Source: Acidobacteriota bacterium
GTDB lineage: Bacteria > Acidobacteriota > Terriglobia > Terriglobales > SCQP01
Reading direction: 5' to 3'
DNA: 64,000 nt
Assembly (NCBI GenBank): GCA_027459505.1
Contig: DAIDIE010000041.1
Span: 3,252 to 67,251 of the forward strand
Part shown: positions 3,482 to 24,169 of the stretch, piece after piece
Numbering within the stretch: the stretch's first letter is position 1
Layout of the letters: the number at the start of each line of letters is the position of its first letter
The notes under the pieces: generated by a model
Told to the model about the DNA's origin: nothing
What the model saw: only the letters and a program-made list of their open reading frames with translations
Database searches by the model: none
Position numbers and translations under genes: made by a program

Positions 3482-3651
3482 GAAAAAGAGAGAAAGTACC
3501 GAGGAAATCCGGCAGAAGTCGGCAAGCGGCGATCCGCTCCTATTCCGCGTTTTTGTAATGGAATCGCTGGGGCCTTCGGCTATAATCCGGGCTGAAAAGC
3601 TGAGTGCATCCACCTCCATGGCAAGCACTACACAGCGGGACCAAATAGCGG

Positions 3652-10408: not shown

Positions 10409-10410
10409 CG

Positions 10411-11124
10411 ATGGAGCGCATTACGCTTGGGGATCTCACGATTGAGGTGGTCCAAAAGGGCATCAAGAACGTTCACCTGAGCGTCTACCCGCCAGCCGGC
10501 CGCGTGCGCATCTCGGCGCCGCTCCATATGCGCCCGGAAACGATCCGCCTCTTCGCCGTCTCCAAGCTTGACTGGATCAAGCGGCAGCAGCGGAAACTGC
10601 GCGAACAGGATCGCGAGTCGGAGCGCGACTACCTCGACCGCGAGAGCCATTACGTCTTTGGCCGGCGGCGCCTGCTCAAGGTCATTGAGCGGGAGGGATC
10701 CCCCCGTATTGAGATCAAGAACAGGGTACTAATCCTCCAAGCCCGTCCAGGGTCAAGCGCCGAAACGCGCGCGGCCGCCGTTGAGGAGTGGTATCGGGGA
10801 CTGCTCCGGGAGGCCGTGCCCCCACTGATCGCGCAGTGGGAGCCCGCGATTGGGGTGAAAGTAGCGCGATTCTTCGTCCAGCGGATGAAGACAAAGTGGG
10901 GTAGCTGCAACCATCGCGCCGCCACCCTACGCTTCAATACGGAACTGGCCAAAAAGCCGCCGGAATGCCTCGAATACCTGGTGGTCCACGAAATGGTCCA
11001 CATTCTGGAGCCCACCCACAACGCCCGCTTCATAGCATTGATGGACCGCCTGATGCCCCAATGGCGCCATCGCCGCGACGTGCTGAACCGTTTGCCCTTG
11101 CGGCATGAGCGGTGGGGGTATTAG
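10411..11124 (+). CDS. DUF45/YgjP-like (M48/SprT-like) zinc metallopeptidase associated with type I R-M
   Basis: HEXXH motif in VVHEMVHILEPTHNARF. The protein is 237 aa and starts 2 nt after the hsdR stop. Confidence 0.8.
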   Translation: MERITLGDLTIEVVQKGIKNVHLSVYPPAGRVRISAPLHMRPETIRLFAVSKLDWIKRQQRKLREQDRESERDYLDRESHYVFGRRRLLKVIEREGSPRIEIKNRVLILQARPGSSAETRAAAVEEWYRGLLREAVPPLIAQWEPAIGVKVARFFVQRMKTKWGSCNHRAATLRFNTELAKKPPECLEYLVVHEMVHILEPTHNARFIALMDRLMPQWRHRRDVLNRLPLRHERWGY

Positions 11125-11261: not shown

Positions 11262-13034
11262 ATGGCGCCGAGGAATATTTACGGTGAGAAGGAGGCCGCC
11301 TCACATCCCCCAACCCAGGATGTTGCGGAGTTCCTGCGCCTCTACCAAGTTCGCGGCCACCAGATCATGTGGTTTCTTGGCGCCGGCGCATCGGCTGCAG
11401 CAGGAATACCCACGGCTTATCACCTCACGTGGGATTTTAAACGCAGCATCTATTGCGCCGAGCAGCGCATTTCTCTAAGAACTTGCCCCGATCTAGGCGA
11501 CACCACGCTGCAAGCCCGAATCCAGCAGTATTTCGACAGCAGGGGCGGCTATCCAAAGCAGGATTCGCCCGATGAATATGCCTTCTACTTTGAAGCGGCC
11601 TTTCCGAACGAAGCCGATCGGCGAAAGCTACTGGATGTTCACGTCGTGGCGGCCCGACCGTCGTTCGGGCATCTGGCCCTTGCCGGACTAATGAAGGCGG
11701 GTAAAGTCCGGGTGGTGTGGACTACGAATTTTGACCGGACTATTGAAGATGCTGCCGCACAGATGTTCCGCAACACCGGTAGCCTTGTTACCTCCACGCT
11801 CGACAGTGCGGCAATCGCGCTCGACGCTCTGAATGAGAGCCGCTGGCCTCTGCTCGGCAAGTTGCACGGTGACTTCCAATCTCGCAGGCTAAAGAACACG
11901 CCCGAGGAGCTTCGAAAGCAGGATGTTCTCTTGCGCGGCGCACTTGTTCAAGCATGCCAGCGCAGCGGTCTCGCTATCATCGGCTACAGCGGTCGGGATG
12001 CCTCGATCATGGAGGCGCTGGAGGAGGCAATGGATGAAACCAATCCCTTCCCCGCAGGCCTCTTTTGGTTCCATAGGGCAGACCAGAAGCCGCTCGATGC
12101 CGCCCGACAGTTTATGGCGAAGGCTGAGGCGAAGGGCATTGCGATGCACCTACTGGAAGTTGAAACATTCGATGAACTGATGGCGGATGTTGTGAACTTG
12201 ACTCCAGACCTCCCGCCCGAAATCTCAAGCGCCCTCGACAAGCGTGCAGAGCGTGTCTCGAATGCACCCATTTCTGCACCTGGAAAATTGTGGCCCATCA
12301 TTCGACTGAATGCATTTCCTATTTTTAGGGCGCCGACACTCTGCCGTCGCGTTGTCTGCTCAATCGGCGGTGCTAGAGAGGTCCGCGAGGCCGTGATTAG
12401 AGGAGAATCGAAGATCCTCGCCGGCAGGCGCAGCCTCGGCGTCTTGGCTTTCGGGCGCGACGAAGATGTGCGAAGCACTTTTGATGAATTCACAATTACT
12501 GAATTTGATTTTCATAACCTCGACGTCAGCCAAACGCAGAATGACCATGCAGAGCTTGGGCTTCTCTACGACGCTATCGCGCGGGCGCTTGCCCGTGCCT
12601 ATCCCCTGATTGACCATCGCAGCCGTCGCGGCCATCTTATGGTTTGTGACCCAGATCGCTCGACGGACCCAAGGCTTGGACCGCTCACTCAAGCGGTTGG
12701 CGGAATCAGCGGCAAAATCCCCGGCACGAAATTCGTATGGCGCGAAGCATTTCGCTTTAGAATCGAACACCGCCTTGGCCGCCTTTGGCTCCTCCTGGAA
12801 CCCTGCATCTGGGTTGAAGGGCTTGAATGGGGTCCGCACGACGAAACCGTGCGCGACTTCCAGCGGGAGCGCTTAGCGACTCGCTACAACAAAAATTGGA
12901 ATAGCTTACTCGACGCCTGGTCGAACTTGTTCACCGGTGTCGCGGAAGCCGCCGAAATTCGGGCGTTCGATATCCAAGATGGCGTTGACGCCGTGTTTAC
13001 GATAGGGAGGGTCACGGCATTCAGCGCGAGGTAG
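11262..13034 (+). CDS. SIR2-APAZ protein, the NADase effector partner of a short pAgo (SPARSA type)
   Basis: N-terminal SIR2_2-type motif FLGAGASAAAGIPT in a 590-aa protein. It sits 11 nt upstream of a MID-PIWI-only Argonaute. Confidence 0.8.
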   Translation: MAPRNIYGEKEAASHPPTQDVAEFLRLYQVRGHQIMWFLGAGASAAAGIPTAYHLTWDFKRSIYCAEQRISLRTCPDLGDTTLQARIQQYFDSRGGYPKQDSPDEYAFYFEAAFPNEADRRKLLDVHVVAARPSFGHLALAGLMKAGKVRVVWTTNFDRTIEDAAAQMFRNTGSLVTSTLDSAAIALDALNESRWPLLGKLHGDFQSRRLKNTPEELRKQDVLLRGALVQACQRSGLAIIGYSGRDASIMEALEEAMDETNPFPAGLFWFHRADQKPLDAARQFMAKAEAKGIAMHLLEVETFDELMADVVNLTPDLPPEISSALDKRAERVSNAPISAPGKLWPIIRLNAFPIFRAPTLCRRVVCSIGGAREVREAVIRGESKILAGRRSLGVLAFGRDEDVRSTFDEFTITEFDFHNLDVSQTQNDHAELGLLYDAIARALARAYPLIDHRSRRGHLMVCDPDRSTDPRLGPLTQAVGGISGKIPGTKFVWREAFRFRIEHRLGRLWLLLEPCIWVEGLEWGPHDETVRDFQRERLATRYNKNWNSLLDAWSNLFTGVAEAAEIRAFDIQDGVDAVFTIGRVTAFSAR

Positions 13035-13045
13035 AGGGAAAAAGC

Positions 13046-14482
13046 ATGGCCGTGGACAGCCGTCTTCCTGCGTTTTTCACTGTCGCGGAGCCCGCTCTGG
13101 CCTTTCACGCAGAGCGGGCAGCGGATCGACATGTGCACCCGTTGATCGGTCTCGTGCAGCACGGGCCATATAGCCGATCCCTTCCGCACCTAGTCATCGA
13201 TCCGATTCGCATCGCCGTCATTGCGCCACATGGCATGCTGCGCCGGGCTGAGGCACTGGTTACAGAACTGGAGTCACGGCACTCACCCCGCGAGCGTCGG
13301 CAGTATCTCGTTGAATATTTAGGTTTCTCCCGTCTATTCGGTGTTCGGGCGGTCCTCGCCGACCAGAGCGTACGGCTAGAGCTGCCTGCACAGATCGATG
13401 ATGAGTGTCGGCGTTCTTCTCAGCCTCACAAGCTCCTTGCTGAAAGGCTTACCCATGCGATCTCCGCTATTCAGGCGCACCGGACAATGTTCGATGTCGT
13501 GCTCTTGCTTCTACCAGACCGCTGGAACTCAGGCTTTTGGGGACCTGAAGGCGATGACTTCGACCTCCACCATTACCTAAAGGCAATTACCGCTGCACGT
13601 GGTATCCCTATGCAGCTCGTTCTCGATGGATCGGCGCTCCGGTACCCCTGCCGGTGTAGTGTCATGTGGCGCCTCAGCATTGCCCTCTACTCTAAGGCTG
13701 GCGGTATACCGTGGAAGCTCGCCGACGCCCCCGAGGACACGGCGTTCATCGGCTTAAGCTATGCGCTACGCTCCGGTGATGATGGCCGACCACGCTTCGT
13801 TACCTGTTGCAGCCAGGTGTTCGATGCAGATGGCGTCGGCATTGAGTTCATTGCGTACGAAAGCGGCGACGTTCACATCGAGCGTGAGAATCCGTACCTT
13901 AGCCGCGCGGACATGCGACGCGTGATGGCGAGAAGCCTTTCGCTCTATCAACGCCGACACGCAGGTCGCCCGCCACGACGCGTAGTAATTCACAAATCTA
14001 CGGAGTTCAAGCGCGATGAGGCTGACGGCTGTTTTGATGCATGGATGACGGCAGAGGGTCTTGATCTCATTCAGGTGCAGCAAGACACGATGTGGCGCGG
14101 AATTCTGCTAAGCAAGCGCCCTGGGCAGAACAAGGGCCAGCCTGAAAACTATCCTTGTGTACGTGGCACCTACGTACCCTTCGGCGGCCGTGAAGTTTTG
14201 GTGTGGACTCAAGGAAATGCGCCATCCGCGGCGACTGGCAACAATTATTACAAGGAGGGCAAGGGCATCCCTTCACCACTTCTGCTGCGCCGCTTCGCCG
14301 GCCATGGCGCCTGGGACGATAGCTGCAGCGCGGTCCTCGGGCTCTCGAAGATGAACTGGAACAATGATGGTCTATATGATCGGCTCCCGGTTACCATGGG
14401 TTATGCTCAGGTCCTCGCCCAGATCGTCAAGAGAATGCCGAGGTTGGGTACCATGCCCTACCAAGTTCGGTTCTTCATGTAA
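13046..14482 (+). CDS. Short prokaryotic Argonaute (MID-PIWI only, 478 aa)
   Basis: PIWI-type blocks are present: WRLSIALYSKAGGIPWKL, AFIGLSYAL, VVIHKSTEF, YYKEGKGIPSPLLL and GLSKMNWNN. It is too short to carry N/PAZ domains. Confidence 0.85.
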   Translation: MAVDSRLPAFFTVAEPALAFHAERAADRHVHPLIGLVQHGPYSRSLPHLVIDPIRIAVIAPHGMLRRAEALVTELESRHSPRERRQYLVEYLGFSRLFGVRAVLADQSVRLELPAQIDDECRRSSQPHKLLAERLTHAISAIQAHRTMFDVVLLLLPDRWNSGFWGPEGDDFDLHHYLKAITAARGIPMQLVLDGSALRYPCRCSVMWRLSIALYSKAGGIPWKLADAPEDTAFIGLSYALRSGDDGRPRFVTCCSQVFDADGVGIEFIAYESGDVHIERENPYLSRADMRRVMARSLSLYQRRHAGRPPRRVVIHKSTEFKRDEADGCFDAWMTAEGLDLIQVQQDTMWRGILLSKRPGQNKGQPENYPCVRGTYVPFGGREVLVWTQGNAPSAATGNNYYKEGKGIPSPLLLRRFAGHGAWDDSCSAVLGLSKMNWNNDGLYDRLPVTMGYAQVLAQIVKRMPRLGTMPYQVRFFM

Positions 14483-14532: not shown

Positions 14533-15228
14533 TCAATTGAAGTGGAAGCAGCTCCTTTCTAGATCCGAAAAAAGCACCTCCGGCACTTCAGGGCACTCGG
14601 CCCTAGCCCGAATCAACTGTGCCTCGAAAGCATTGCCAGTTTCCTTTAGAGGATCGTCGGCTGCTTGCCATTTCTGTGGATAGTAGTGCTTCAGGATCAA
14701 CAGCGTGAAGGCGAGGGGCGTAAGATTCCGCGCGATGGCCCATCTTCCGCCAGCACCGTGACCGATGTGGAAGTGCGAAGATGGATGAGAGAACTCCCTT
14801 CGATCTCTAGGAGCGCTCTCATACCGTATCGGCGCAGCGCGATTATCACTGCGTTGTTCGTTGATGAGCGTGAGGAACTCTTCATTCGTGATCATCCCCG
14901 CATCAAGAAGCTCGCGGCAGCGCTCAATATTCACTTCTGCTTCGATTGGGTCCAGAAAGGGATTGGGGTAGAACGCGTAGCGCACGTGATCATCAGCGAT
15001 GATGCTGTACTGAAAGAAAGAGAAGTCGGACAGGAGGATGTTGTAATGCTTGCATTCGAGGCCGGCAAGATACAGCTCGTTATATTGCACCTCGTCTGAG
15101 AACAACAGATTCCGAAACTCTTCATTGACCCGAAGAGGCGCAATGCTGCTGATCGTTTCGCCCATGTCGATCTCGAGGACGGCAGCCCACGACTCACGAA
15201 TCCCTCTTTGTACCTCTCTTTGATCCAT
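14533..15228 (-). CDS. Small partner protein of the SF1 helicase, DUF2290-like (family assignment from memory and context)
   Basis: The ATG at 15228 (MDQREVQ) overlaps the helicase stop by 35 nt; the track start 15282 is an alternative. Contains HPSSHFHIGHGAGGRWAI. It lies convergent to pAgo. Confidence 0.5.
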   Translation of the reverse strand: MDQREVQRGIRESWAAVLEIDMGETISSIAPLRVNEEFRNLLFSDEVQYNELYLAGLECKHYNILLSDFSFFQYSIIADDHVRYAFYPNPFLDPIEAEVNIERCRELLDAGMITNEEFLTLINEQRSDNRAAPIRYESAPRDRREFSHPSSHFHIGHGAGGRWAIARNLTPLAFTLLILKHYYPQKWQAADDPLKETGNAFEAQLIRARAECPEVPEVLFSDLERSCFHFN

Positions 15229-17338
15229 GCTTTTCCTCGACGGCAAGGATTTCGTAAATCTCGTCCTCGCTAAATCCCTCATTCTTTAGTCTTGTCGTGT
15301 ATTCATTTCGAATCTTCATGGCCTTTGCGTGGCGCTCACTCAGGTCGCGCTGAATAAGCTCGACTTCTTGCAAGTCCGGCATGGTGAATTCAAGATACGG
15401 AAATCTTGTCAACGCAGCGCGAATTTCAGCCTCGAATGCGCGAGCTCTAGCGCCAACTCCGGTCACCCGGAGCCACCCTTTAGTGCGAGTGAAAGCCGTG
15501 AACAGTTTGTTTCGGCTCGAACGCGACTGCGGCGAAATGGCGTCAATTCCGGTTGCGAATACAACGGCAGCCTCGTTACCCTTGGCCCGGTAAACCGTCG
15601 ATAGCGTTACTCGCCCAGATATGAGAAACGGCGGTTCAGTATATGGATCAGCTATGATGTTATTGGTGTCGATGCCAGCCTGTGCGAGTGCGCTCGACAA
15701 CGATGTGAAATAACCGCGAGCATTCCGGTCATCGAGGGACACCACCAGAATGTCCTCGGGATGTAGGCCGCCGGCGATGAAACGATTGATGCCATTGACA
15801 ATCCACGCCACTTCATCATCAAACGCCGCCGCGACATAGCACTCTATGATGGGTGCATCCTTCGGCGTATCGAGATGCAGAGGACTGTTCTCCTCGGGCC
15901 GGAGAATCCGAACGCTTTCCCCCGGGGTGAAGTTTCCATCTACGACATCGTAGCCCACATCATTCCAGTGGTCGGGGCTTTCGAGGAGTTGTACCACATC
16001 ACGATATATTCCGAAACCGAGCGCATGAGCAACCACGAGAACTTCACGCTGATTCCTGTAACATTTGCCAAGAACTGTGTCGTTCGTCGCTCCCGGCGGC
16101 AATTGGACTGTCGTTCTAGCTAATGAAACGCGTGCTTTGTGATCGGTGTCTGTTCCGAAGAGCTCTTCAGGGGATCGCATCGTCACGTTCAGGATGTTTT
16201 GCAGTTCGTCATAAGCCCAGATTATGGACTTCTCGTCGCTTTGTCCATTTGCAACGGCGTAACACAGCTCGTAGAAGCCCGTCGGGAAATCCTGCCCTTC
16301 GTCGATCAGCACGTGATCGTAGTAGGGGCTGACTTCAACATCCTTCAAAAGTGCACGGCAAGCGAAATCAAACGGATCAGCGCTACCGGCGGCCTGCCTC
16401 GCTTTCGCGAAATTCATCGGAACTACCGCATGTCGCCGGCATGCATCAGCATAGACGCCGGGAGTTTTTGCACCGCCCCATCCATGCCTAATGTGTATAC
16501 GATCCCAGTTCGGGTCCTCGTCTCGGTAGTGGCGATAAAATCGAGTGACAAGATTTATTAGTGAAGCACGCAGGCTTCGCGTGTAAAAAGTCACCAAGAT
16601 ATTTTGATCTGGTTGTGTCAAATGAAGGTGGGCTGCCTTCATTGCCAGAATGATGGTCTTACCAGAACCTGCCAAACCTCGGATTCGCTGTGGGCCAGGA
16701 GTGGTCACAATGGCCGCTCTCCGTTGCTGCTGATCGAAGTTCGCGATCTCCATTTCGAGGCGAGACAGCGCCACCGCGAATGGTTTCTTCGCGGGATCAT
16801 CGACCACCCGCTTCTGCGGCCGAGTCAGCGCCTTTGCCCCCTCGATGACTGAACGCGCTTCCGCAAACGCGTTATCGGCCAACGGCGCCGTGAGCGCCTG
16901 GCGATGTAGTTGCTCTCCGACGCGTTCGAAAGATGTGGCGACCTCGCTCTCAACGTCCAGCGCGGTCTGAGCGCCGCCTATGATCAACAAGAGCGGAACC
17001 ACCTTGAACGTGAGGTGTGAGCGATCCGAACGTAGGACACGACTCTTCAGGAGCCGCCCGATTAGGATGCTGCAGAACTGGCTCAATGATTCATCAAGCG
17101 TTTCGACCAGCCCATCTCGGACGATACTGAAAGCGAAGACGCCATATACACGGGAGAGTAAAAGGGAATCTGGCCTGTGGACCACGGTCTCATAGTCCGC
17201 GTAGGACGGAAAGTCGTAATACAGGACTGCATCATCGAGGTTCAGGCCCCTGGCGTTCACTTGAAGATACCGAACCAACTCGCGACCGACGGGATCTTTG
17301 CGAATCCTGTCGGTGGTGATGATGACGTCTAGCGGCAT
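15194..17338 (-). CDS. SF1 (UvrD-like) helicase with an uncharacterised N-terminal ~200-aa domain
   Basis: Walker A GLAGSGKT, motif II VLIDEGQDFP and C-terminal UvrD_C-like VYRAKGNEAAVVF...FTAFTRTKGWL are present in a 714-aa protein. Confidence 0.85.
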   Translation of the reverse strand: MPLDVIITTDRIRKDPVGRELVRYLQVNARGLNLDDAVLYYDFPSYADYETVVHRPDSLLLSRVYGVFAFSIVRDGLVETLDESLSQFCSILIGRLLKSRVLRSDRSHLTFKVVPLLLIIGGAQTALDVESEVATSFERVGEQLHRQALTAPLADNAFAEARSVIEGAKALTRPQKRVVDDPAKKPFAVALSRLEMEIANFDQQQRRAAIVTTPGPQRIRGLAGSGKTIILAMKAAHLHLTQPDQNILVTFYTRSLRASLINLVTRFYRHYRDEDPNWDRIHIRHGWGGAKTPGVYADACRRHAVVPMNFAKARQAAGSADPFDFACRALLKDVEVSPYYDHVLIDEGQDFPTGFYELCYAVANGQSDEKSIIWAYDELQNILNVTMRSPEELFGTDTDHKARVSLARTTVQLPPGATNDTVLGKCYRNQREVLVVAHALGFGIYRDVVQLLESPDHWNDVGYDVVDGNFTPGESVRILRPEENSPLHLDTPKDAPIIECYVAAAFDDEVAWIVNGINRFIAGGLHPEDILVVSLDDRNARGYFTSLSSALAQAGIDTNNIIADPYTEPPFLISGRVTLSTVYRAKGNEAAVVFATGIDAISPQSRSSRNKLFTAFTRTKGWLRVTGVGARARAFEAEIRAALTRFPYLEFTMPDLQEVELIQRDLSERHAKAMKIRNEYTTRLKNEGFSEDEIYEILAVEEKHGSKRGTKRDS

Positions 17339-17579
17339 ACAGAAAGGACCGAATGCGTGATTAAGCGGAGCGCCAAGAGCGCTGGTGTATCCAAGGCGTA
17401 ATTATCACCACGATCGCACAGGTATTGCAAGCAGTTCGCTGCTTGAGGTACGAAATCTTGCAGCCTGCATCATTGCCTGCACCGCGGGGGGCATTTCAGA
17501 CAGACGCCGAATGCCGCTGGCCTCTCCCCCGCCGACTATGATTTGGGTAGCCTATCGCGACAGGGCCCTGCCCACCGTT

Positions 17580-18245
17580 TGGTGAGCGTAATACTCCGGG
17601 TTCGGCTTGTCCGGCCGCCGGTCCGCCAATTCGCGGCGCGCTCGCTCGGGGCCGCGGCCCGTCTTGAGTTGTTCCCGGATTCAGGCCCAGTGCCGCTCGG
17701 ATTGGGAGATGGCTCCGCGCTGATTGGCGTTGACGGTGATCTGCTGCCGCATCGTCCGCGCCGCGTTGCCGCTGCTGGTCCGTCGCGCGTTCAAGCGCCC
17801 TATGAAAAGTTGCGATGCATAAGCACTTTCGCTCAGCCGGTTGCCCTCGCCACGGTCTGGCCCGAGGTACTTCTTGTTGTGGAAGCCGGGCAAGCGTAGG
17901 ACGCAAGTAGCGTGGGTGGCGGCGGGATCGCTCCGTATTGGCCCGCCAAGTCGCGGAGGGCGGCTTCGGCGGATTCGATGGAGAAGGCATGATCGGGGCC
18001 GGAGTCTGCTTCGGCCACGCGACAGATGACTTCGCGCTTGCCGGGCGAGGCGTCCAGAACGTAGTTGGGGGTGGGCAGGTTGGGTCGGCGAGGACCTGGT
18101 TCAGGCGATCGCCGCCCGTCGTGGTCGAGGTTGAGGTAGAGGTAGAGGTAGAGGGGTCAAGGTAGAGGTGGAGGATGGCGGCGATGTCGGCCCTGGCGCG
18201 GATGCGGGCGTCTGGCTTGAGGGCTGTTCTCGACAAGTCGCCCAT
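17580..18245 (-). pseudogene. Frameshifted RepB-family DNA primase / replication protein remnant
   Basis: One minus frame gives PNLPTPNYVLDASPGKREVICRVAEADSGPDHAFSIESAEAALRDLAGQYG. Another gives VLRLPGFHNKKYLGPDRGEGNRLSE. These resemble RepB_primase blocks as I remember them, but they lie in different frames. Confidence 0.45.
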
Positions 18246-19020: not shown

Positions 19021-19168
19021 CCGGGAAACCCGCCAGGGTAAACCGCGCCGCCTGACCAACAGCCACGCCCCACGGTGAACTGTAAACTGTGCACTGTCAA
19101 CTTCTGCCTGCGCACTGTCAACTTCTGACAGTGCACTGTGAACCTCTGACCTCCCACCGTGCACCGCA
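19021..19168 (+). repeat. Dispersed intergenic element: conserved ~50-nt module followed by a 7-nt periodic tail
   Basis: The module is cgccagggtaaaccgcgccgcctgaccaacagccacgccccacggtgaac. The tail is made of heptamers: tgtaaac tgtgcac tgtcaac ttctgcc tgcgcac tgtcaac ttctgac agtgcac tgtgaac. Confidence 0.75.
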
Positions 19169-19286
19169 CTCCAATTGTTACAACCGCTGTAACAGTTTCT
19201 TCTCCCCCAACTTGGGGGAATCGACAAGATTGTTCCGCCGTACCACGATTGACCTGAGCGCCGCTTGCGCTCTGGAGTCTGTCGTC

Positions 19287-20885
19287 ATGCCAAAATCACG
19301 CAAACGCAAAAAGCATCACCAGAAGCATCACCACAACCGCTCGTTACCTTTTATCCGCAAAGCCGCCGCCACATCCGTGGCCGCCACGCCAGCGGAGTCT
19401 GTCTCGCCGCTCAACGGCGAAGTCGGCGCTGAAACAATTGCGGGAAGAACCGCTGCAATCGCTCCGCCTCTCGAGAAAAAAGTAGCGTCCGCGGCAGTTG
19501 CGGCCGCGGCAGCTACCGCCGGCGCCACGGACAATGACGTCCGCCAACCTTATACACACAACGAGCCCACCGCGGCGGCCAGCGCTGCCGCTTCGCCTTC
19601 TCCCTCAACCCCTCACTCCAAACCCCGCACTCCCACGTCAGCGACTGCCGATTCCGGCTTTGCCGCATCCGGCGCGTCCGGCGCGTCCAGCGCATCCGGC
19701 TCCGCCTCGCCCTTCGCCGCCTTCGCCGACTGGCAGGCCTTCAGCATGCCGCCCGAGCCGCCCGAGCCTGTCTGGGAGTTCCGTCCCACCCGCGCCCAAC
19801 TGCGCCTGCTTAGAGCCATGCTCAGTCCCGACTGGGACACCGTCCCCACCGTCACCGCCGTCTGCGAACGCATCGGCATCAGCCGCGGCACTTATTACCG
19901 CTGGTCGGAAGACCCCGCCTTCATGGCCTGGCTTTCCGCCAACGTCGTGAACCATGTATCGACGTTCGGGCCATGGGCGCTGCTCGCGCTGCATCATGGC
20001 GCCATGAACGGAGATCCGCGCTCTTCGCGTCACCTCTACTCCATGCTGCTGCCGCGCCGCTTTGGCGGACTCAACACCTTCCTCGAGCCGTACGCCAGGC
20101 AAGCCGCTATGGCGCCCAACCCGCTCTCTTCGGAAGAGGACGAACGCCTCTGCCAACTGGAGTGGGAGGCCGAGTGCGCCCAGCGCGCCGCCCGCGCCGC
20201 AAACCAGCAGTCAACAATGAAAACGCCAAAGCACCCCGGTGCGGCCCGCTCAGCCGCCTCCAAATACCAGGCTGCAACCACAACCGCAGCACAACCCGGC
20301 CCCGAAGCCGCCATCGAGAACCCGTTTGCAGACGAGTCTGGAATCGCCGCCGCAGCGGGCAATAGTAAGGCGGCCAGTTGTGACTTGGCCAACGCAGAAG
20401 CGGGCAGCCGCGAGGCCGCCGGCCAGGAGCGGTCAGATCAGGAAGCTATCAGCGCCACACTGCTCGAAGTTCCCGCCGCCGAATCTAAAGCAGCAAACAA
20501 CGCTGCCATTGACGACATCATTGACGACATCATCGACGACATCACTGATGACGCCACTGTTGACGCCATTGCTGGCGCCACTGGTAACGCCATCATCGTT
20601 GACGCCATTCTTGACGCTACTGATAACGCAACCGATGACGCCACGGAATCCGCCGCCGCGAATCACCCCGCCGCGCAACAAGCAGCGCAACCAGCAACTG
20701 CCTCTGGCAACCTGACCGCCTCGGCCGGCGAAGCAACTGCCCCCGCCAATCCGGCGGGCAGCGAGCACGCCGCCGTGGAGCAGCGCAAGCCCGTCTCCAT
20801 CTCTTCCGATGGAGCCCCCGCTCGCCCCGCCGCGCGCGCCGCCGCGCGCGCCGCCATCGCCGGACCCACAAAAGGGGCCGCCTGA
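19287..20885 (+). CDS. HTH-domain protein with Lys/His-rich N-terminus and Ala/Asp-rich low-complexity flanks (mobile-element style)
   Basis: I chose the ATG at 19287 (MPKSRKRKKHHQKHHHN). The central block is RPTRAQLRLLRAMLSPDWDTVPTVTAVCERIGISRGTYYRWSEDPAFMAWL. The track start 19089 lies inside the heptamer repeat. Confidence 0.5.
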   Translation: MPKSRKRKKHHQKHHHNRSLPFIRKAAATSVAATPAESVSPLNGEVGAETIAGRTAAIAPPLEKKVASAAVAAAAATAGATDNDVRQPYTHNEPTAAASAAASPSPSTPHSKPRTPTSATADSGFAASGASGASSASGSASPFAAFADWQAFSMPPEPPEPVWEFRPTRAQLRLLRAMLSPDWDTVPTVTAVCERIGISRGTYYRWSEDPAFMAWLSANVVNHVSTFGPWALLALHHGAMNGDPRSSRHLYSMLLPRRFGGLNTFLEPYARQAAMAPNPLSSEEDERLCQLEWEAECAQRAARAANQQSTMKTPKHPGAARSAASKYQAATTTAAQPGPEAAIENPFADESGIAAAAGNSKAASCDLANAEAGSREAAGQERSDQEAISATLLEVPAAESKAANNAAIDDIIDDIIDDITDDATVDAIAGATGNAIIVDAILDATDNATDDATESAAANHPAAQQAAQPATASGNLTASAGEATAPANPAGSEHAAVEQRKPVSISSDGAPARPAARAAARAAIAGPTKGAA

Positions 20886-21206
20886 ACGGGTGGGAAAACG
20901 CGACAGCGCGCCAACGCGCGCCGCGGCCCTCAAAGCCGCGTAACCAGAGTCAAATCAGCACCTTAGGAGGGAACCAGCAAGCAAGATCAAAATCCGGGTG
21001 TCTCATTTTCGATCCCCTGAACACCCCGCCCAGGTCCGAAAGGCGCCGACAACAGGGCAAGAACAAGCTGCTCAACGCCGCGCCCAGGGCAAACACTGCC
21101 CAGGCACAGCGGGAAGAGACAAAATCCAAACCCGAACGCCAACCCTCAGCCGTTCGTACAGGAGATCCCCGCGCCATGCATGAACCACAATTGCAAGTTG
21201 AAAGGC

Positions 21207-21338
21207 CACGGTCGGGTGTCCACTCAACGTTGTATGTTGAGTGGGAAAACCGCCGAGGTCATGTGCGCCGCCAACCCCAGGCAAGCCCCACAGACAACAG
21301 ACAACAGACAACAGACAACCGACAACCGACCCCCGTCC
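21207..21338 (+). repeat. Direct repeat copy 1 (hairpin + module + CAGACAA heptamers), paired with 21675..21815
   Basis: Hairpin CCACTCAAC-gttgtat-GTTGAGTGG, then gaaaaccgccgaggtcatgtgcgccgccaacccc, then cagacaa x4 and ccgacaa x2. Confidence 0.85.
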
Positions 21339-21348
21339 ACCCGAGCGG

Positions 21349-21450
21349 TACTGCGTCCCAGCCCGCGCGCCTGCCAGCATGCGGAGGAAAGAGACAACGT
21401 TCGGCGCCGGGCAAGACTAGCCCGGCATAGCACGAAGTGCGTATGCCGGG
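21349..21450 (-). repeat. Copy B of the ~100-nt repeat, inverted relative to 1531..1632
   Basis: The reverse complement reads cccggcatacgcacttcgtgctatgccgggctagtcttgcccggcgccga...ctggcaggcgcgcgggctgggacgcagta. Confidence 0.8.
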
Positions 21451-21610
21451 TTCACCAAAGCGGAGCGATCCCGTATAGCGAGCGCAGCGACGCGTAATCC
21501 GCCGCCGCATGAATCGTGCACCCTTTGCTCACCTTTCCAAACCGGCGCCAGAAACCCCCGCCCCGCGTACTCACGTTAACCGTGGCTCCAACGCCTGGAT
21601 TCGGACAACA

Positions 21611-21673
21611 CGCCAAGGTAACCTGCGCCGGGACCAATGGCAACGCCCCACGGTGAGGTGTGCACTGTGAACC
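21611..21673 (+). repeat. Additional copy of the conserved module (...acgccccacggtga + short heptamer tail)
   Basis: cgccaaggtaacctgcgccgggaccaatggcaacgccccacggtgaggtgtgcactgtgaacc aligns to 19021..19090. Confidence 0.7.
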
Positions 21674-21674
21674 C

Positions 21675-21815
21675 CACGGGTCCGGTGCCCCACTCAACGT
21701 TGTGTGTTGAGTGGGAAAACCGCCGAGGTCATGTGCGCCGCCAACCCCTGGCAAGCCCCACCGAAAACCGACAACAGACAACCGACAACCGACAACAGAC
21801 AACCGACCCCCGTCC
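21675..21815 (+). repeat. Direct repeat copy 2, paired with 21207..21338
   Basis: CCACTCAAC-gttgtgt-GTTGAGTGG gaaaaccgccgaggtcatgtgcgccgccaacccc, followed by an accgaca/acagaca heptamer tract. Confidence 0.85.
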
Positions 21816-21959
21816 CGCCTCGCAGTCCACGTCCAGTTCCGAAGCAGGCGGGACGGGGCCCCGGCGCCAGCCGGTGCGCGTCGGAGGTTTTCACCAGCGC
21901 CGGATACAAGCAACCGTGTGTCAAGAGAAGCGCCAGACCCGAACAGAACTGACTTCGAA

Positions 21960-22042
21960 CCGTCAGCTTCGGCCGGACGACGAAGCACTGAAATAAAAGC
22001 GGTCGTGCCGCTTCTGCGCTACGATCATTTGGTGCGCCGCCC
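21960..22042 (+). repeat. Twin-hairpin element copy A, just upstream of the 22074 gene
   Basis: ccgtcaGCTTCGgccggacgaCGAAGCactgaaataaaaGCGGtcgtgCCGCttctgcgc...gcgccgccc aligns to 24101..24169. Confidence 0.7.
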
Positions 22043-22073: not shown

Positions 22074-22541
22074 ATGGACCCCGCGCCAGATGCGCAGTTC
22101 CTCTCGCAATTGAGGAAGCGGCTACGCTACCAGGGCAGTCCGAAACACAAGCGGAATCCGCAAACGTTCGGACTCCCCGCGTTCTCTGGCGCTCGCGGTG
22201 ACGCCACCCTTTGCGAGCACGCAGCATTCAGCGCCGGCGACAGCGGTCGAATCCCATTCATCATGGGAAGGGGCGTCCAGGCCGGTTTGATTGGCAACTG
22301 TTTCGAGCATGGGTTTGAGCATGGACTACCCAAGACCATCTGGGCAGTGGACCAGACCGGTTGGATTTTTGAAGGCAAGCTCACCAACATCACGAGCGGC
22401 GAATATCACGGCTATCCGCTGTTACCGGGAGCACCGATTGCTCGCTTAATATATGATCGGTTCAGGGACTGGGTTGTGAACCACCCCAAGCCACGCAACC
22501 AGCAGGCACTTGAAAACTGCCACGATCTTTATGGACTCTAG
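22074..22541 (+). CDS. Uncharacterised small basic protein (155 aa), candidate toxin/effector of a two-gene cassette
   Basis: I chose the ATG at 22074 (MDPAPDAQF); the track ORF from 21711 runs through the repeats. Distinctive blocks are YQGSPKHKRNPQTFGL and WIFEGKLTNITSGEYHGYPLLPGAPIA. The stop overlaps the next gene. Confidence 0.6.
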   Translation: MDPAPDAQFLSQLRKRLRYQGSPKHKRNPQTFGLPAFSGARGDATLCEHAAFSAGDSGRIPFIMGRGVQAGLIGNCFEHGFEHGLPKTIWAVDQTGWIFEGKLTNITSGEYHGYPLLPGAPIARLIYDRFRDWVVNHPKPRNQQALENCHDLYGL

Positions 22542-23859
22542 CGCCAGCTTCGTGATTGATTTCGAACCCATTGCCTCAGGCAATGTCGCGAGGCTTGTCG
22601 TCTATGGGTTGGGGCATTGCCTTACACGCCTGCTGCGCGATGGCGAGAATGCTCCCTCCGAGCACCTCATAGTTCCCCCGGAAATGCTGGCACACTGGTT
22701 CGTGGAAAACTGGTGGCGACTGCGTTGGGAACCGGTTCCAGCAGGCACGAACAGTCCCCCCGACGCATGGCGGATGGCGCACGACATGCGCTCGATCGGA
22801 GGCGGGTTCGCATGGCCCAACCTTCTCGTCTGGGGAGAGGATACGCGCGTGTGCCTCAGAGCGCATCCGGACCCACTTGGAGTTGCCGGACCGGTACGCT
22901 TCTTGAGCGATGCCTCTGGAGCAATATCCGCTCGCAATTTCGAGGCTGAGGTGGACCGCTTTCTCGACTCGGTCCGCGATACGAACGACGACGGCGGCTT
23001 TGGTCAGCTGGTGCGCGCGCTCCGCGCGGAGAGGAGTGACTCCGAAGTTGCAGCATGGCGGCGACTTGAGGCTCGTCTCGGATTTGATCCGGGCGATGCC
23101 CCCGATTCCGTCATGACCCAACTGGGCGAGTTGGTGGCTCGATTCCGGGAGCGCGACATCGAGGAAGCCGCCTCCGCTGCACCGGGCGCCGAGGCTGCGG
23201 GCATTTTACAGGAGGAGATCGCCGCCGCCACAGGAATGGGGGGATGGGATTGCAACCCGCAACCAGTATCCGATTTAGCTTCCCAATACCGCAGCCGGGA
23301 GCAAGCGGCAAGCAACCTTTCAACGGAAGCGCCTTGGCGCCAGGGGGAACAAACTGCTAAGTTCCTGCGTGCCACGCTCACGCATTGCGGTCCCGTGGGG
23401 AATAGCCTCTTATCCGAACTGTTGGGCATTCAAGAGCAGGCTATTGGGAATGCGCAACACCATCCATGCGATAGCTTAAAGCCTCTCTACGCGCTTCTCG
23501 TCACGGAGGAACGTGGCCACCGGTTTCTCCCGAGATCGAAGTGGCTGCAAGGCCGAAGGTTTGAACTGGCCCGCCTGGTCGGCGATTTGCTCTACAACGG
23601 TCCTGCTCAGGGCCGCTCCCTGGCGCCAATTGCGCTTTCCAGAACTCACCGGCAGAAATTTCAGCGTTCATTCGCGGCGAACTTCCTTTGCCCCATTGAC
23701 GAACTCGTCGCGTATATGGCCACAGACTCGCCCGAGGAAGACGATATGACCGCGGCCGCCAGCCACTTTTCCGTTTCGCCTACCCTGGTGAAATCAACCC
23801 TCATGAACCACGGCAAGCTCCCTCGTACAGCTTTCCAAGAAGTGGTCGAGGCGTTGTAG
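22531..23859 (+). CDS. Uncharacterised 442-aa protein with a C-terminal ImmA/IrrE (M78)-like domain lacking the HEXXH residues
   Basis: The ATG at 22531 overlaps the upstream stop (ATGGACTCTAG). RRFELARLVGDLLY sits where the family has RFTLAHELGHLL. The downstream family block FAANFLCPIDELVAYM...HFSVSPTLVKSTLMNHGKL is retained. Confidence 0.6.
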   Translation: MDSSASFVIDFEPIASGNVARLVVYGLGHCLTRLLRDGENAPSEHLIVPPEMLAHWFVENWWRLRWEPVPAGTNSPPDAWRMAHDMRSIGGGFAWPNLLVWGEDTRVCLRAHPDPLGVAGPVRFLSDASGAISARNFEAEVDRFLDSVRDTNDDGGFGQLVRALRAERSDSEVAAWRRLEARLGFDPGDAPDSVMTQLGELVARFRERDIEEAASAAPGAEAAGILQEEIAAATGMGGWDCNPQPVSDLASQYRSREQAASNLSTEAPWRQGEQTAKFLRATLTHCGPVGNSLLSELLGIQEQAIGNAQHHPCDSLKPLYALLVTEERGHRFLPRSKWLQGRRFELARLVGDLLYNGPAQGRSLAPIALSRTHRQKFQRSFAANFLCPIDELVAYMATDSPEEDDMTAAASHFSVSPTLVKSTLMNHGKLPRTAFQEVVEAL

Positions 23860-23969: not shown

Positions 23970-24079
23970 CCGAGTTCGTCACCAGGCGAGGCGTTAAGAC
24001 GGAGAAGAGTGCGGCTTTTCTCAACAGGAAAAGCCGCATGCCTCTAGATTGCAAACGCGCCGTTGTGTGACGAACTCGG
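23970..24079. repeat. 110-nt nested palindrome (13-bp outer and 10-bp inner perfect stems)
   Basis: Outer stem: CCGAGTTCGTCAC (23970-23982) pairs with GTGACGAACTCGG (24067-24079). Inner stem: GCGGCTTTTC-tcaacag-GAAAAGCCGC (24011-24037), centred on the same axis. Confidence 0.8.
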
Positions 24080-24100: not shown

Positions 24101-24169
24101 TCCGTGAGCTTCGGCCGGAGGCCGAAGCGGGTGGAATAAAGGCGGCCGTGCCGCTCCGCCGGCGCCGCC
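24101..24169 (+). repeat. Twin-hairpin element copy B, just upstream of the 24203 gene
   Basis: ccgtgaGCTTCGGCCggaGGCCGAAGCgggtggaataaagGCGGCcgtGCCGCtccgccggcgccgccc. Confidence 0.7.

What the first reader, a model, noticed from the sequence alone, without database searches (positions are those of the whole stretch)
22074..23859. Uncharacterised, translationally coupled two-gene cassette: small basic protein plus a dead ImmA/IrrE-like protein
The two ORFs overlap by 11 nt (ATGGACTCTAG), so they are probably co-translated. The first (155 aa) matches no family I can name. It has sharply defined blocks (YQGSPKHKRNPQTFGL; GWIFEGKLTNITSGEYHGYPLLPG) that resemble small nuclease-type toxin domains. 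The resemblance to colicin E3-like or RNase folds is only an impression.

The second (442 aa) ends in a region colinear with the ImmA/IrrE (COG2856, M78) peptidase domain. Its HEXXH position reads RRFELARLVGDLLY, so the domain should be catalytically inactive. The downstream FAxxFLxP block is kept. Its N-terminal ~330 aa (WFVENWWRLRWEP and so on) is unknown to me.

The pair lies between a defence island and an RHS/IS graveyard. It is flanked by a repeated twin-hairpin element and a nested palindrome. ImmA-like domains are recurrent sensors or regulators in prophage, TA and defence contexts. A toxin plus pseudo-protease pair would be an unusual architecture.
Basis: partly seen in the sequence, partly recalled or inferred. 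Interest (0 to 1): 0.75.

Follow-up and report, generated by a model that had tools for sequence, protein, structure and literature searches.

The report
Toxin-like gene with dead-protease partner
This is a real and widespread two-gene module that no database describes: a small protein with no recognisable fold, always followed by a larger protein whose ImmA/IrrE-type protease domain has lost its catalytic residues. It most likely acts as a toxin–antitoxin or abortive-infection pair, but that has not been tested.

Summary
ORF1 (22074-22541, 155 aa, pI 8.9) and ORF2 (22531-23859, 442 aa, pI 5.3) overlap by 11 nt. Neither matches Pfam, NCBIfam or PADLOC.

The two genes are obligate partners:
- 70 of 70 loci chosen by ORF1 carry ORF2.
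- About 69 of 73 loci chosen by ORF2 carry ORF1 directly upstream.
- 116 of 144 pairs overlap.
- There is no conserved third gene.
- The pair occurs across many phyla and is almost absent from phages.

ORF2's C-terminus is an ImmA/IrrE (M78) fold (Foldseek: CapP, IrrE). In 201 relatives H-E-x-x-H…E reads R-x-x-x-D…Q, and none keeps HExxH. A rarer sister module has an intact M78 peptidase and is homologous over both proteins, so this is a conserved pseudo-protease lineage.

ORF2's N-terminus is predicted as two ββββα repeats (weakly PUR-like) followed by a helical domain. ORF1 gives a confident model with no structural match in PDB or BFVD, so the nuclease resemblance is unsupported.

When one gene is damaged it is ORF1, never ORF2 (12/73 against 0/51, p=0.0014), which fits ORF1 as toxin.

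Best reading (about 0.5): a RosmerTA-like toxin–antitoxin module that neutralises by binding, not cleavage. It is a new variant of a known kind.

The parts
21960..22013 (+). Left copy of a ~55-nt twin-hairpin element, in direct repeat with 24102-24156. It ends 18 nt before an alternative GTG start and 60 nt before the ORF1 ATG.
   Evidence: the repeat finder family D2. Pairwise alignment shows about 85% identity over the core. The core pattern is found only at these two sites in the window, against 0.13 expected. The second hairpin reads as a terminator-like site on the minus strand.
22074..22541 (+). ORF1: 155 aa, pI 8.9, the candidate toxin/effector. It belongs to a new family with conserved motifs Y-x-G-S-P-K-H-K, R-G-D-A-T-L-C-D, G-W-I-F-E, T-N and E-Y-H-G-Y-P. 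An alternative GTG start at 22032 would add a remnant of the basic N-terminal tail seen in most relatives.
   Evidence: Coordinates. Invariant residues are H25 K26 C47 R66 G67 L72 W90 G96 F99 T104 H112 G113 P115 R129. No Pfam, NCBIfam or PADLOC hit. AF2 pLDDT 92.1, pTM 0.86. No structural neighbour in PDB or BFVD. pI.
22146..22151 (+). Codons for H25-K26 of ORF1. The preceding K24-H25 (K-H) is the part kept in every tier of the small-protein superfamily, including the sister family that partners an active peptidase; K26 is kept within the main family and tier 2.
   Evidence: Alignments.
22404..22418 (+). Codons for Y111-H112-G113-Y114-P115 (YHGYP), the signature motif of the small-protein superfamily.
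   Evidence: One divergent Tistrella relative reads YKGWP instead.
22531..22541 (+). The 11-nt overlap (ATGGACTCTAG) of the ORF2 start with the ORF1 end. No Shine-Dalgarno sequence is evident upstream, which is consistent with translational coupling.
   Evidence: Family-wide, 140 of 144 pairs have the ORF2 start within -20 to +15 nt of the ORF1 stop, and 116 overlap (4 nt in 70, 1 nt in 25, 8 nt in 13, 11 nt in 6). The sister family also uses an 11-nt overlap.
22531..23859 (+). ORF2: 442 aa, pI 5.3, the candidate antitoxin/sensor. It has three parts and ends in an ImmA/IrrE-like pseudo-peptidase.
   Evidence: AF2 pLDDT 92.4, pTM 0.90. pI.
22531..22983 (+). ORF2 residues 1-151: two tandem β-β-β-β-α repeats with PUR/Whirly-like topology. 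They include the invariant W-rich helix NWWRLRWEP, W80-R-x-x-H84 and G-x-x-W95-P96.
   Evidence: DSSP elements E7-13, E20-26, E34-36, E46-48, H50-66, then E97-103, E106-112, E122-124, E128-133, H134-151. Foldseek hits to Pur-alpha repeat I-II are weak (prob about 0.5, TM-target 0.34-0.38). Conservation.
22999..23307 (+). ORF2 residues 157-259: a helical domain carrying the invariant E167, R177, E180-A181, G184 (WRRLEAxLGFDP) and E212.
23332..23856 (+). ORF2 residues 268-442: an HTH-like helix pair followed by an ImmA/IrrE (M78)-like domain.
   Evidence: Foldseek: CapP 7t5t (E 3.3e-3, prob 1.00), IrrE 3dti/3dte (prob 0.95), PprI 8slm, MtPrpR 6cz6. Of 46 relatives, 17 give weak Pfam Peptidase_M78 hits, 13 hit PADLOC RmrA (best 8.3e-6) and 8 hit capP.
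23572..23586 (+). Codons for R348-L-V-G-D352, which occupy the H-E-x-x-H position. The zinc-binding and catalytic motif is replaced.
   Evidence: Alignment to an intact M78 relative (AHELCH aligns with ARaLGD). In 201 family members the positions read R in 194, never E, and D in 199. None of the 201 has HExxH.
23650..23655 (+). Codons for R374-Q375. Q375 replaces the third zinc ligand, the Glu of the ExxANxFA block.
   Evidence: Q is present in 198 of 201 members.
23970..24079 (.). Nested palindrome downstream of ORF2. The outer arms are 23970-23995 and 24054-24079. The inner hairpin is 24003-24020 and 24028-24045.
   Evidence: the repeat finder pairs I2 and I3. There is no T-run after it, so it is not scored as an intrinsic terminator.
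24102..24156 (+). Right copy of the twin-hairpin element. Together with the left copy it brackets a ~2.2-kb cassette.

Best explanation
The pair is a self-contained, horizontally mobile, toxin–antitoxin-type module. It may also serve as an abortive-infection system.

ORF1 is the effector. It is a small basic α+β protein of an undescribed fold. It has a conserved polar cluster (H25-K26, C47-D48, E100, N105, H112-G-Y-P) that is probably a catalytic or metal-binding site.

ORF2 is made by translational coupling straight after ORF1. I infer that it neutralises ORF1 by stoichiometric binding. It descends from an active ImmA/IrrE (M78) peptidase partner, and that state survives in a rarer sister module. 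In this lineage the zinc site H-E-x-x-H…E has been replaced by a strictly conserved R-x-x-x-D…Q. The former substrate cleft would therefore bind without cleaving.

The N-terminal double ββββα (PUR-like) domain and the helical domain of ORF2 are proposed to be the input module. They might sense single-stranded nucleic acid or another stress or phage cue, and that signal would release ORF1.

Shown here: the gene anatomy, obligate pairing, coupling, loss of the catalytic motif, the fold of the C-terminal domain, homology to an active sister pair, and asymmetric decay.

Inferred only: toxicity of ORF1, direct binding, the nature of the trigger, and any anti-phage role.
For: 1. Obligate pairing in both directions. 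All 70 metagenome loci chosen by ORF1 with at least 300 nt downstream carry ORF2. Of the 80 genome loci chosen by ORF2, 74 carry ORF1; under the stricter room and adjacency filter, 61 of 73 have a full-length ORF1 directly upstream, 8 more a partial one, and 4 have none adjacent.
2. Coupling. 116 of 144 pairs overlap, mostly as ATGA.
3. Co-divergence of the partners. Spearman rho is 0.81, p = 1e-18.
4. No conserved third gene. The 129 neighbouring proteins from 33 genome loci fall into 199 Pfam families, and none recurs more than 4 times. In several genomes the pair sits alone among housekeeping genes.
5. Patchy spread over many phyla (Acidobacteriota, Alpha-, Beta- and Gammaproteobacteria, Verrucomicrobiota, Latescibacterota, Chloroflexota, Planctomycetota and others), and presence on a few plasmids.
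6. Asymmetric decay. ORF1 is partial or missing in 12 of 73 loci that keep an intact ORF2, whereas ORF2 is intact in 51 of 51 loci that keep an intact ORF1 (Fisher p = 0.0014). One example is L002 against L003: identical ORF2, truncated ORF1.
7. A basic ORF1 (pI 8.9) with an acidic ORF2 (pI 5.3).
8. ORF2's C-terminus is closest to RmrA, CapP and IrrE. ImmA-domain antitoxins paired with diverse toxins, often with the toxin gene first, are established as RosmerTA (PMC10440598; bioRxiv 10.1101/2022.05.11.491447).
9. The catalytic residues are replaced by a conserved alternative set in 201 of 201 members. That indicates selection for a non-proteolytic function.
10. There are precedents for non-cleaving COG2856 proteins: Rir/Crh (PMC6868357) and MtPrpR (PMC6765138).
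11. In the window the pair lies next to a defence island. In L046 it lies next to a ParDE module and the sister pair.
Against: - No experiment or homology shows that ORF1 is toxic, and its fold matches no known toxin.
- The putative key residues are not universal. A divergent Tistrella relative has H112→K and E100→Q, and E100 varies in the sister family.
- Most genomic contexts are metabolic, not defence islands.
- Only one relative was found in 2.9 million viral contigs and none in 50,697 phage genomes.
- The PUR-like assignment rests on topology and weak Foldseek scores (prob about 0.5).
- The decay asymmetry partly relies on HMM coverage, which can reflect divergence and not only damage.
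- No complex model could be made, so binding of ORF1 by the dead cleft is conjecture.
Confidence: 0.5

Rival explanations
1. The pair is a non-proteolytic stress-response regulator, analogous to IrrE/DdrO, ImmA/ImmR, CapP/CapH or Rir/Crh. ORF2 would sense a signal such as ssDNA and sequester or release ORF1, which would then act in trans on gene expression or another cellular target without being a toxin.
For: The ORF2 C-terminal domain is closest in fold to CapP and IrrE. There is an HTH-like helix pair before the M78-like domain. COG2856 proteins can act by binding without cleavage (Rir/Crh; PMC6868357). CapP is switched on by ssDNA (bioRxiv 10.64898/2026.05.16.725639), and ORF2 has a possible ss-nucleic-acid-binding PUR-like domain.
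Against: ORF1 has no HTH or any DNA-binding signature. There is no conserved neighbouring operon that could be the regulated target. The gene order and the 4-nt overlaps are more typical of TA modules. The asymmetric loss of ORF1 is not predicted by this model.
Confidence: 0.15
2. The polarity is reversed. ORF2 is the effector, for example a nucleic-acid-binding or other activity in its large N-terminal region, and the small ORF1 is its inhibitor or antitoxin.
For: COG2856 proteins were originally predicted to be the toxin partner of Xre antitoxins (PMC2701414). ORF2 carries many invariant charged and aromatic residues in its N-terminal 260 aa.
Against: ORF2 lacks any catalytic motif. ORF1 is the one lost or truncated while ORF2 stays intact. 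ORF1 is basic and ORF2 acidic. ImmA-domain proteins have been shown experimentally to be antitoxins in RosmerTA (PMC10440598).
Confidence: 0.1
3. The pair is an accessory metabolic or housekeeping enzyme (ORF1) with a dedicated scaffold or chaperone (ORF2), unrelated to conflict systems.
For: Most neighbours are metabolic genes. The pair is almost absent from phages. ORF1 looks like an enzyme or metal-binding protein.
Against: There is no conserved pathway context at all. The distribution is patchy and looks like horizontal transfer. The pair is associated with transposases, integrases, TA modules or defence genes in several loci. It is ancestrally linked to ImmA/RmrA/CapP-type proteins.
Confidence: 0.15
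4. The pair is a decaying relic: a former ImmA/IrrE system that has lost function and is drifting.
For: The canonical catalytic motif has been lost.
Against: The replacement residues are themselves nearly invariant (R 194/201, D 199/201, Q 198/201). Both proteins keep dozens of invariant positions across phyla at only 30-50% overall identity. The AF2 models are highly confident. There are at least 570 intact genome loci.
Confidence: 0.02

Closest known systems
RosmerTA (RmrT toxin plus RmrA ImmA-type Zn-peptidase antitoxin; Millman et al. 2022 preprint 10.1101/2022.05.11.491447; Ernits et al. 2023, PMC10440598)
   Same: It is a two-gene operon with a variable, often unrecognisable toxin next to a protein carrying an ImmA/IrrE domain. 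Toxin-first order is common. ORF2 relatives give their best defence-library hits to RmrA models (13 of 46, best E 8.3e-6).
   Different: RmrA has an intact HExxH peptidase and usually a small N-terminal HTH. Here the zinc site is replaced family-wide. ORF2 also carries about 260 extra N-terminal residues (double ββββα plus a helical domain). The small partner belongs to a new family, and the window protein hits RmrA only at E 0.024. Toxicity and defence were not tested here.
Sister module found here: a 130-160-aa 'KHC…WHGYPW' protein plus a 461-490-aa Peptidase_M78 protein (L046 8169-10029, L033, L170, L172)
   Same: It is homologous over both proteins: hhalign gives 94.2% for the small proteins and 88.7% over 335 columns for the large ones. 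It has the same gene order, the same 11-nt overlap, and the same N-terminal W-rich helix and C-terminal M78 domain.
   Different: The sister keeps HELCH…ExxANAFA and passes Pfam's PF06114 threshold (43.6 and 35.6 bits against a cut-off of 22). It is much rarer: 30 protein clusters against 233 or more. It is also uncharacterised.
CapP/CapH (CBASS regulator), IrrE(PprI)/DdrO and ImmA/ImmR
   Same: These give the best structural matches to the ORF2 C-terminal domain (CapP 7t5t prob 1.00; IrrE 3dti prob 0.95). In each, a small partner gene sits immediately upstream. They sense ssDNA or DNA damage.
   Different: Those peptidases are active and cleave an XRE-family repressor. ORF1 is not an HTH protein and ORF2 cannot be a zinc peptidase. 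There is no GAF-like C-terminal domain, and the extra domains are N-terminal instead.
Non-cleaving or non-catalytic COG2856 relatives: Rir/Crh of phage TP-J34 (PMC6868357) and MtPrpR (PMC6765138)
   Same: They are precedents for an IrrE-like domain that works by binding (Rir) or as a ligand-binding module with the HEXXH residues not conserved (PrpR). PrpR (6cz6) is among the Foldseek hits.
   Different: Rir still has HEXXH and targets a repressor. PrpR is a transcription factor with HTH, GAF-like and Fe-S/CoA-binding parts. Neither is paired with an ORF1-like protein.

Membership tests
Peptidase_M78 / ImmA-IrrE (Pfam PF06114, COG2856) | A significant sequence match to the family model | tested here: not met
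   The window ORF2 has no Pfam hit at E<=1. Of 46 relatives, 17 give only weak hits (best E 6.8e-4). The PDB profile search does not reach IrrE or CapP.
Peptidase_M78 / ImmA-IrrE (Pfam PF06114, COG2856) | The HEXXH zinc-binding/catalytic motif plus the downstream Glu ligand | tested here: not met
   Aligned to an intact relative, H→R348, E→L349 (A/L/T/C/V/I in the family), H→D352 and E→Q375. None of 201 members has HExxH.
Peptidase_M78 / ImmA-IrrE (Pfam PF06114, COG2856) | The IrrE-like fold of the domain | tested here: met
   Foldseek against PDB: CapP 7t5t (E 3.3e-3, prob 1.00), IrrE 3dti/3dte (prob 0.94-0.95), PprI 8slm/8sln, MtPrpR 6cz6. hhalign to true M78 proteins gives 88.7%.
Peptidase_M78 / ImmA-IrrE (Pfam PF06114, COG2856) | An adjacent XRE-family HTH repressor as substrate | tested here: not met
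   ORF1 has no HTH or other Pfam, NCBIfam or PADLOC hit. Its predicted α+β structure is not an XRE five-helix bundle.
RosmerTA | RmrA: a match to RmrA models | tested here: inconclusive
   The window ORF2 hits PDLC03949 at E 0.024 (11.5 bits). Of 46 relatives, 13 match, with a best E of 8.3e-6.
RosmerTA | RmrA is a zinc peptidase with an intact active site | tested here: not met
   (see above).
RosmerTA | A two-gene operon of a toxin plus an ImmA-domain antitoxin | tested here: met
   The architecture and strict pairing are shown. That ORF1 is a toxin remains inferred.
RosmerTA | Toxicity neutralised by the partner, and anti-phage protection | not testable with these tools
   This requires expression and phage-challenge experiments.
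Type II toxin-antitoxin modules (generic) | A compact bicistronic operon with overlapping or abutting genes and strict co-occurrence | tested here: met
   70 of 70 loci in one direction; in the other, 74 of 80 loci carry ORF1 and 69 of 73 have it directly upstream, full or partial. 116 of 144 pairs overlap.
Type II toxin-antitoxin modules (generic) | Patchy, horizontally transferred distribution with no conserved context | tested here: met
   Many phyla, no recurrent neighbour, and presence on some plasmids.
Type II toxin-antitoxin modules (generic) | The toxin can be lost while the antitoxin persists, but not the reverse | tested here: met
   12 of 73 against 0 of 51, Fisher p = 0.0014. Caveat: some 'partial' ORF1 copies may be divergent and not damaged.
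Type II toxin-antitoxin modules (generic) | Direct toxin–antitoxin binding and toxicity | not testable with these tools
   No complex prediction or experiment was available.
PUR / Whirly-like nucleic-acid-binding fold (ORF2 N-terminus) | Two ββββα repeats forming one domain, with structural similarity to Pur-alpha | tested here: inconclusive
   The topology is present in the AF2 model. Foldseek to PURA 8chv, 8chu and 5fgp gives only prob 0.47-0.54 and TM-target 0.34-0.38.
   Pfam on 41 members gave no recurrent hit. PDB profile search best E was 0.54, to ferritin. Foldseek best E was 0.36 in PDB and 0.48 in BFVD, with TM below 0.3.

The most novel reading that the evidence does not exclude
The module is a new kind of conflict or anti-phage switch. 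An ImmA/IrrE peptidase partner would have evolved from a cleaving regulator into a pseudo-enzyme clamp. In this reading the dead M78 cleft holds a toxin of a previously unseen fold, and the PUR-like N-terminal domain senses phage or damage-derived single-stranded nucleic acid and releases the toxin. The co-existing active sister module would be a natural before-and-after pair showing how a protease-gated system turns into a binding-gated one.
Probability: 0.2. Interest if true: 0.8.

Novelty: new variant of a known kind. Interest (0 to 1): 0.62.

Why it matters
If the reading holds, three things follow.

1. It would add a widespread module to the ImmA-domain (Rosmer-like) toxin–antitoxin and defence network. 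The module occurs in at least 570 genome loci across many phyla and is currently unannotated.
2. It would provide a candidate toxin with a confidently predicted fold that has no neighbour in PDB or BFVD.
3. It would be a clear case of a protease turned pseudo-enzyme under strong purifying selection. An active sister lineage exists for direct comparison, sometimes in the same genome (Pseudomonas lopnurensis, L046).

There is also a practical point. No Pfam, NCBIfam or PADLOC model in the copies searched here detects the window pair, and at least one RefSeq relative that lacks the catalytic motif is labelled 'ImmA/IrrE family metallo-endopeptidase'.

Tried and rejected
- **Family libraries.** Pfam, NCBIfam and PADLOC scans of both window proteins gave nothing usable.
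- **PDB sequence searches.** Profile searches with the ORF1 family, the ORF2 family and the ORF2 C-terminal domain alone returned only chance hits: ferritin, a Fab, Hox-A9 and p53.
- **Structure searches for ORF1.** Foldseek against PDB and BFVD gave no match.
- **Fold ideas for ORF1.** I considered, from memory only, barnase/BECR RNases, GIY-YIG (GWIF…YHG spacing), papain-like Cys/His enzymes, HKD/PLD and an H/C/H/C zinc site. None is supported:
  - the GIY-like aromatic is not kept in tier-2 relatives;
  - C149 is absent from tier 2;
  - H112 and E100 change in a Tistrella relative.
- **Polymorphic-toxin use of ORF1.** An exhaustive profile search found mainly stand-alone proteins of 130-180 aa. 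There was one TPR fusion and no Rhs-type fusion among the best 150.
- **Phage origin.** One relative in IMG/VR and none in 50,697 phage genomes.
- **A conserved third gene or defence-island enrichment.** Not found.
- **RNA genes.** No Rfam family and no tRNA anywhere in the window.
- **Source organism.** An exact look-up of the window's ORF2 failed and the protein clusters carry no names.
- **Literature.** Searches found no description of this pair or of a pseudo-peptidase ImmA antitoxin.
Full report
**1. The observation**

ORF1 runs from ATG 22074 to TAG 22541 (155 aa). ORF2 runs from ATG 22531 to TAG 23859 (442 aa). The two share the 11 nt ATGGACTCTAG. No Shine-Dalgarno sequence is evident before the ORF2 start, and a GGAAAG lies 13 nt before the ORF1 ATG.

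An in-frame GTG at 22032 would add MRRPQAHTGKPLRL. This looks like a shortened remnant of the basic tail (MKKPPxRPDLPPRRSDNDKRRL) that most relatives carry.

ORF1 is basic (pI 8.86) and ORF2 is acidic (pI 5.32).

**2. Neither protein belongs to a described family**

Pfam, NCBIfam and PADLOC give no hit for ORF1. For ORF2 there is only a sub-threshold RmrA hit (E 0.024).

Both proteins nevertheless have many relatives, all unnamed or 'hypothetical':
- 119 clusters for ORF1 and at least 233 for ORF2.
- 494 ORF1 representatives at E<=1e-3 in an exhaustive profile search.
- At least 570 genome loci for ORF2.

RefSeq annotates both genes as hypothetical proteins on a Sphingomonas plasmid.

**3. The two genes are an obligate, coupled unit**

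- In 80 genome loci chosen by ORF2 similarity, an ORF1-family ORF was found on the same strand in 74. It was directly upstream in 73. Four of the six without a hit had no upstream sequence.
- Conversely, all 70 metagenome loci chosen by ORF1 similarity with at least 300 nt of downstream sequence contain ORF2.
- In 140 of 144 pairs a start codon for ORF2 lies within -20 to +15 nt of the ORF1 stop. 116 pairs overlap: 4 nt in 70, 1 nt in 25, 8 nt in 13 and 11 nt in 6.
- HMM scores of the two partners co-vary across loci (Spearman 0.81), so they diverge together.

There is no third partner. The 129 flanking proteins from 33 genome loci fall into 199 Pfam families, and none is shared by more than four loci. 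Most are metabolic, and only two are integrases. In Terriglobales, an alphaproteobacterial MAG and another MAG, the pair sits alone between housekeeping genes. Elsewhere it lies next to transposases.

Hosts span Acidobacteriota, Alpha-, Beta- and Gammaproteobacteria, Verrucomicrobiota, Latescibacterota, Eremiobacterota, Chloroflexota, Planctomycetota, Lentisphaerota and Desulfobacterota. Seven of 72,556 plasmids carry a relative. Only one of 2.9 million viral contigs does, and no sequenced phage does.

**4. ORF2 anatomy**

AlphaFold2 gives a confident model (pLDDT 92.4, pTM 0.90). It has three parts.

- **Residues 1-151** form two β-β-β-β-α repeats. The first helix carries the invariant NWWRLRWEP. 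Foldseek gives only weak matches to Pur-alpha repeats I-II (prob about 0.5), so the PUR/Whirly-like label is tentative.
- **Residues 157-259** are helical and carry the invariant WRRLEAxLGFDP.
- **Residues 268-442** match CapP (7t5t, E 3.3e-3, prob 1.00), IrrE (3dti/3dte, prob 0.95), PprI and MtPrpR. By sequence, 17 of 46 relatives give weak Peptidase_M78 hits, 13 hit RmrA (best 8.3e-6) and 8 hit capP.

**5. The protease site is gone, family-wide, and replaced by a conserved alternative**

A motif scan of all fetched loci found two 460-470-aa proteins (L046 8641-10029, L033 5750-7174) with an intact HELCH…ExxANAFA. Both pass Pfam's M78 threshold.

Aligning the ORF2 profile to them puts R348 on the first His, position 349 on the catalytic Glu, D352 on the second His, and Q375 on the third ligand Glu. 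In 201 ORF2-family members these positions read:
- R in 194;
- A, L, T, C, V or I at 349, and never E;
- D in 199;
- Q in 198.

None has HExxH in the last 200 residues. This is a selected pseudo-active site and not decay.

There are precedents. MtPrpR has an IrrE-like domain in which the HEXXH residues are not conserved (PMC6765138). Rir acts on its repressor without cleavage (PMC6868357).

**6. A sister module with an active peptidase**

Upstream of each intact M78 protein lies a small gene of 130-160 aa, overlapping it by 11 nt. Its motifs are KHC, GKCP, VYEAV and WHGYPW. This small-protein family has 30 clusters. In further contigs it is again followed, with an 11-nt overlap, by a 461-490-aa Peptidase_M78 protein.

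Profile-profile comparison supports homology for both partners:
- small proteins: 94.2%, E 1.2e-7;
- large proteins: 88.7%, E 2.6e-6, over 335 columns covering ORF2 residues 50-428.

The window's pair is therefore the abundant, catalytically dead branch of an older module of a small HGYP protein plus a long M78 protein. In Pseudomonas lopnurensis (L046) the dead pair, a ParD/ParE module and the active pair lie side by side.

**7. ORF1**

The model is confident (pLDDT 92.1, pTM 0.86). It has N-terminal short helices, a long helix (54-69), an antiparallel sheet (88-92, 98-105, 110-115) and two C-terminal helices.

It has no significant neighbour in PDB (best E 0.36) or BFVD (best E 0.48). No member of the family hits any Pfam model recurrently.

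Residues kept across tier 1, tier 2 and the sister family are K-H (24-25), C47, W/Y90 and the H-G-Y-P block; E100 is kept in most members but varies in two of 17 sister proteins. A divergent Tistrella relative has YKGWP and Q in place of E100. No single catalytic set can be asserted. The most I can infer is an enzyme or metal site.

**8. Which partner is the dangerous one?**

I compared two sets built the same way. ORF1 is truncated, split or missing next to an intact ORF2 in 12 of 73 loci. ORF2 is full-length in 51 of 51 loci with an intact ORF1 and enough sequence (Fisher p = 0.0014). One example is L002 and L003, which encode the identical ORF2, while ORF1 is cut to 81 aa in L002.

This is the pattern expected if ORF1 is harmful without ORF2. 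The charge pair (basic ORF1, acidic ORF2) and the toxin-first order fit as well. Toxin-first order is common for ImmA/Rosmer antitoxins, at 58% (PMC10440598).

**9. Mechanism proposed**

ORF1 is the effector. ORF2 is produced in step with it by coupling and neutralises it by binding. The former peptidase cleft (R348/D352/Q375) and the W-rich N-terminal helix are the candidate contact surfaces.

The PUR-like and helical domains are the candidate sensor. This is by analogy with ssDNA activation of CapP (bioRxiv 10.64898/2026.05.16.725639) and with the PprI-ssDNA structure among the Foldseek hits (8sln).

Everything in this section is inference. I put the TA/abortive-infection reading at about 0.5.

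**10. Local context in the window**

Upstream lie a type I R-M system with a YgjP-like protein (3652-11124), SIR2-APAZ plus a class I short pAgo (11262-14482; PADLOC E 1e-187 and 1e-191) and a DUF2290 plus helicase pair (14533-17338, minus strand).

The cassette is bracketed by a ~55-nt twin-hairpin direct repeat (21960-22013 and 24102-24156) that occurs nowhere else in the 64 kb. This is compatible with a discrete insertion, but I could not test that. A nested palindrome follows ORF2 (23970-24079). A 122-nt repeat occurs twice upstream (21220-21341 and 21690-21811).

**11. Verdict**

The closest known kind is the ImmA-domain (RosmerTA-like) toxin–antitoxin or defence module. The pair fails the defining tests for membership of M78 peptidases and of RosmerTA proper, because it has no model match for the window protein and no zinc site. 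I class it as a new variant of a known kind. It has a candidate toxin of unknown fold and a conserved pseudo-protease. Function has not been tested.

Noticed in passing
window 11262-14482 (+): A SIR2-APAZ protein (590 aa) followed by a class I short prokaryotic Argonaute (478 aa). This is a SPARSA-type defence pair, with PADLOC E-values of 1e-187 and 1e-191.
   Followed up: partly
window 14533-17338 (-): A DUF2290 protein overlapping a UvrD-like helicase. Both match paired PADLOC models (DUF2290 E 6e-20; Helicase E 3e-139), so this is a further candidate defence pair. The adjacent 249-aa ORF at 17496-18245 (-) has no hit.
   Followed up: partly
window 3652-11124 (+): A complete type I restriction-modification operon (HsdM, HsdS, HsdR) followed by a YgjP-like metallopeptidase gene.
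   Followed up: partly
window 19089-20885 (+): A 598-aa, very Ala/Pro/Thr-rich, low-complexity ORF. Its only domain hit is a borderline HTH_Tnp_1_2 match (27.8 bits against a cut-off of 27.9). The region 20001-22000 has a strongly skewed composition (AT skew +0.32).
   Followed up: no
window 21220-21341 and 21690-21811: A 122-nt direct repeat (91% identical, 470 nt apart). It contains a palindrome (CCACTCAACGTTGT.TGTTGAGTGG) and a CAACCGACAA-type short tandem tract. There is no Rfam match. It may be a REP/MITE-like element or a regulatory region upstream of the cassette.
   Followed up: partly
window 21960-22013 and 24102-24156: The twin-hairpin element read on the minus strand is a GC hairpin followed by TTTTATTT or CTTTATT, which is terminator-like. 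Two direct copies bracket the cassette and occur nowhere else in the window. They may be insertion boundaries or duplicated terminators.
   Followed up: partly
L046 (Pseudomonas lopnurensis NZ_JADDIX010000007) 5400-10550: Three TA-like modules lie in tandem: the dead-protease pair, ParD/ParE, and the active-protease sister pair. Repeated fragments of the 3' end of one gene are interspersed among them (peptides GERFDIRAK.TSIGGYSAHADQQGL at about 7200 and 10300; RPPAAITTGGA at about 7440 and 8230). This suggests serial site-specific insertions at one gene's 3' end.
   Followed up: partly
L174 (Tistrella mobilis plasmid pTM2, NC_017966.1) 3349-5107: A divergent member of the pair. The large protein is annotated in RefSeq as 'ImmA/IrrE family metallo-endopeptidase', yet it reads FARAVGD…YRQAASRAFAAEFLAP with no HExxH. 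The upstream small ORF (YEGSPEHK…TICP…YKGWP) is not in the gene table supplied.
   Followed up: partly
P0246 (574 aa) and L058 4517-6043: Rare fusions. In P0246 an ORF1-type domain sits at the C-terminus of a TPR-repeat protein. In L058 a single ORF carries both an ORF1 N-terminal fragment and a full ORF2, which could be a fusion or a frameshift read-through.
   Followed up: no
L019 2487-2876 vs 5896-7206: In one Paracoccaceae MAG the ORF1 remnant lies 3 kb upstream of ORF2, with other ORFs between them. This looks like an insertion that split the pair.
   Followed up: no
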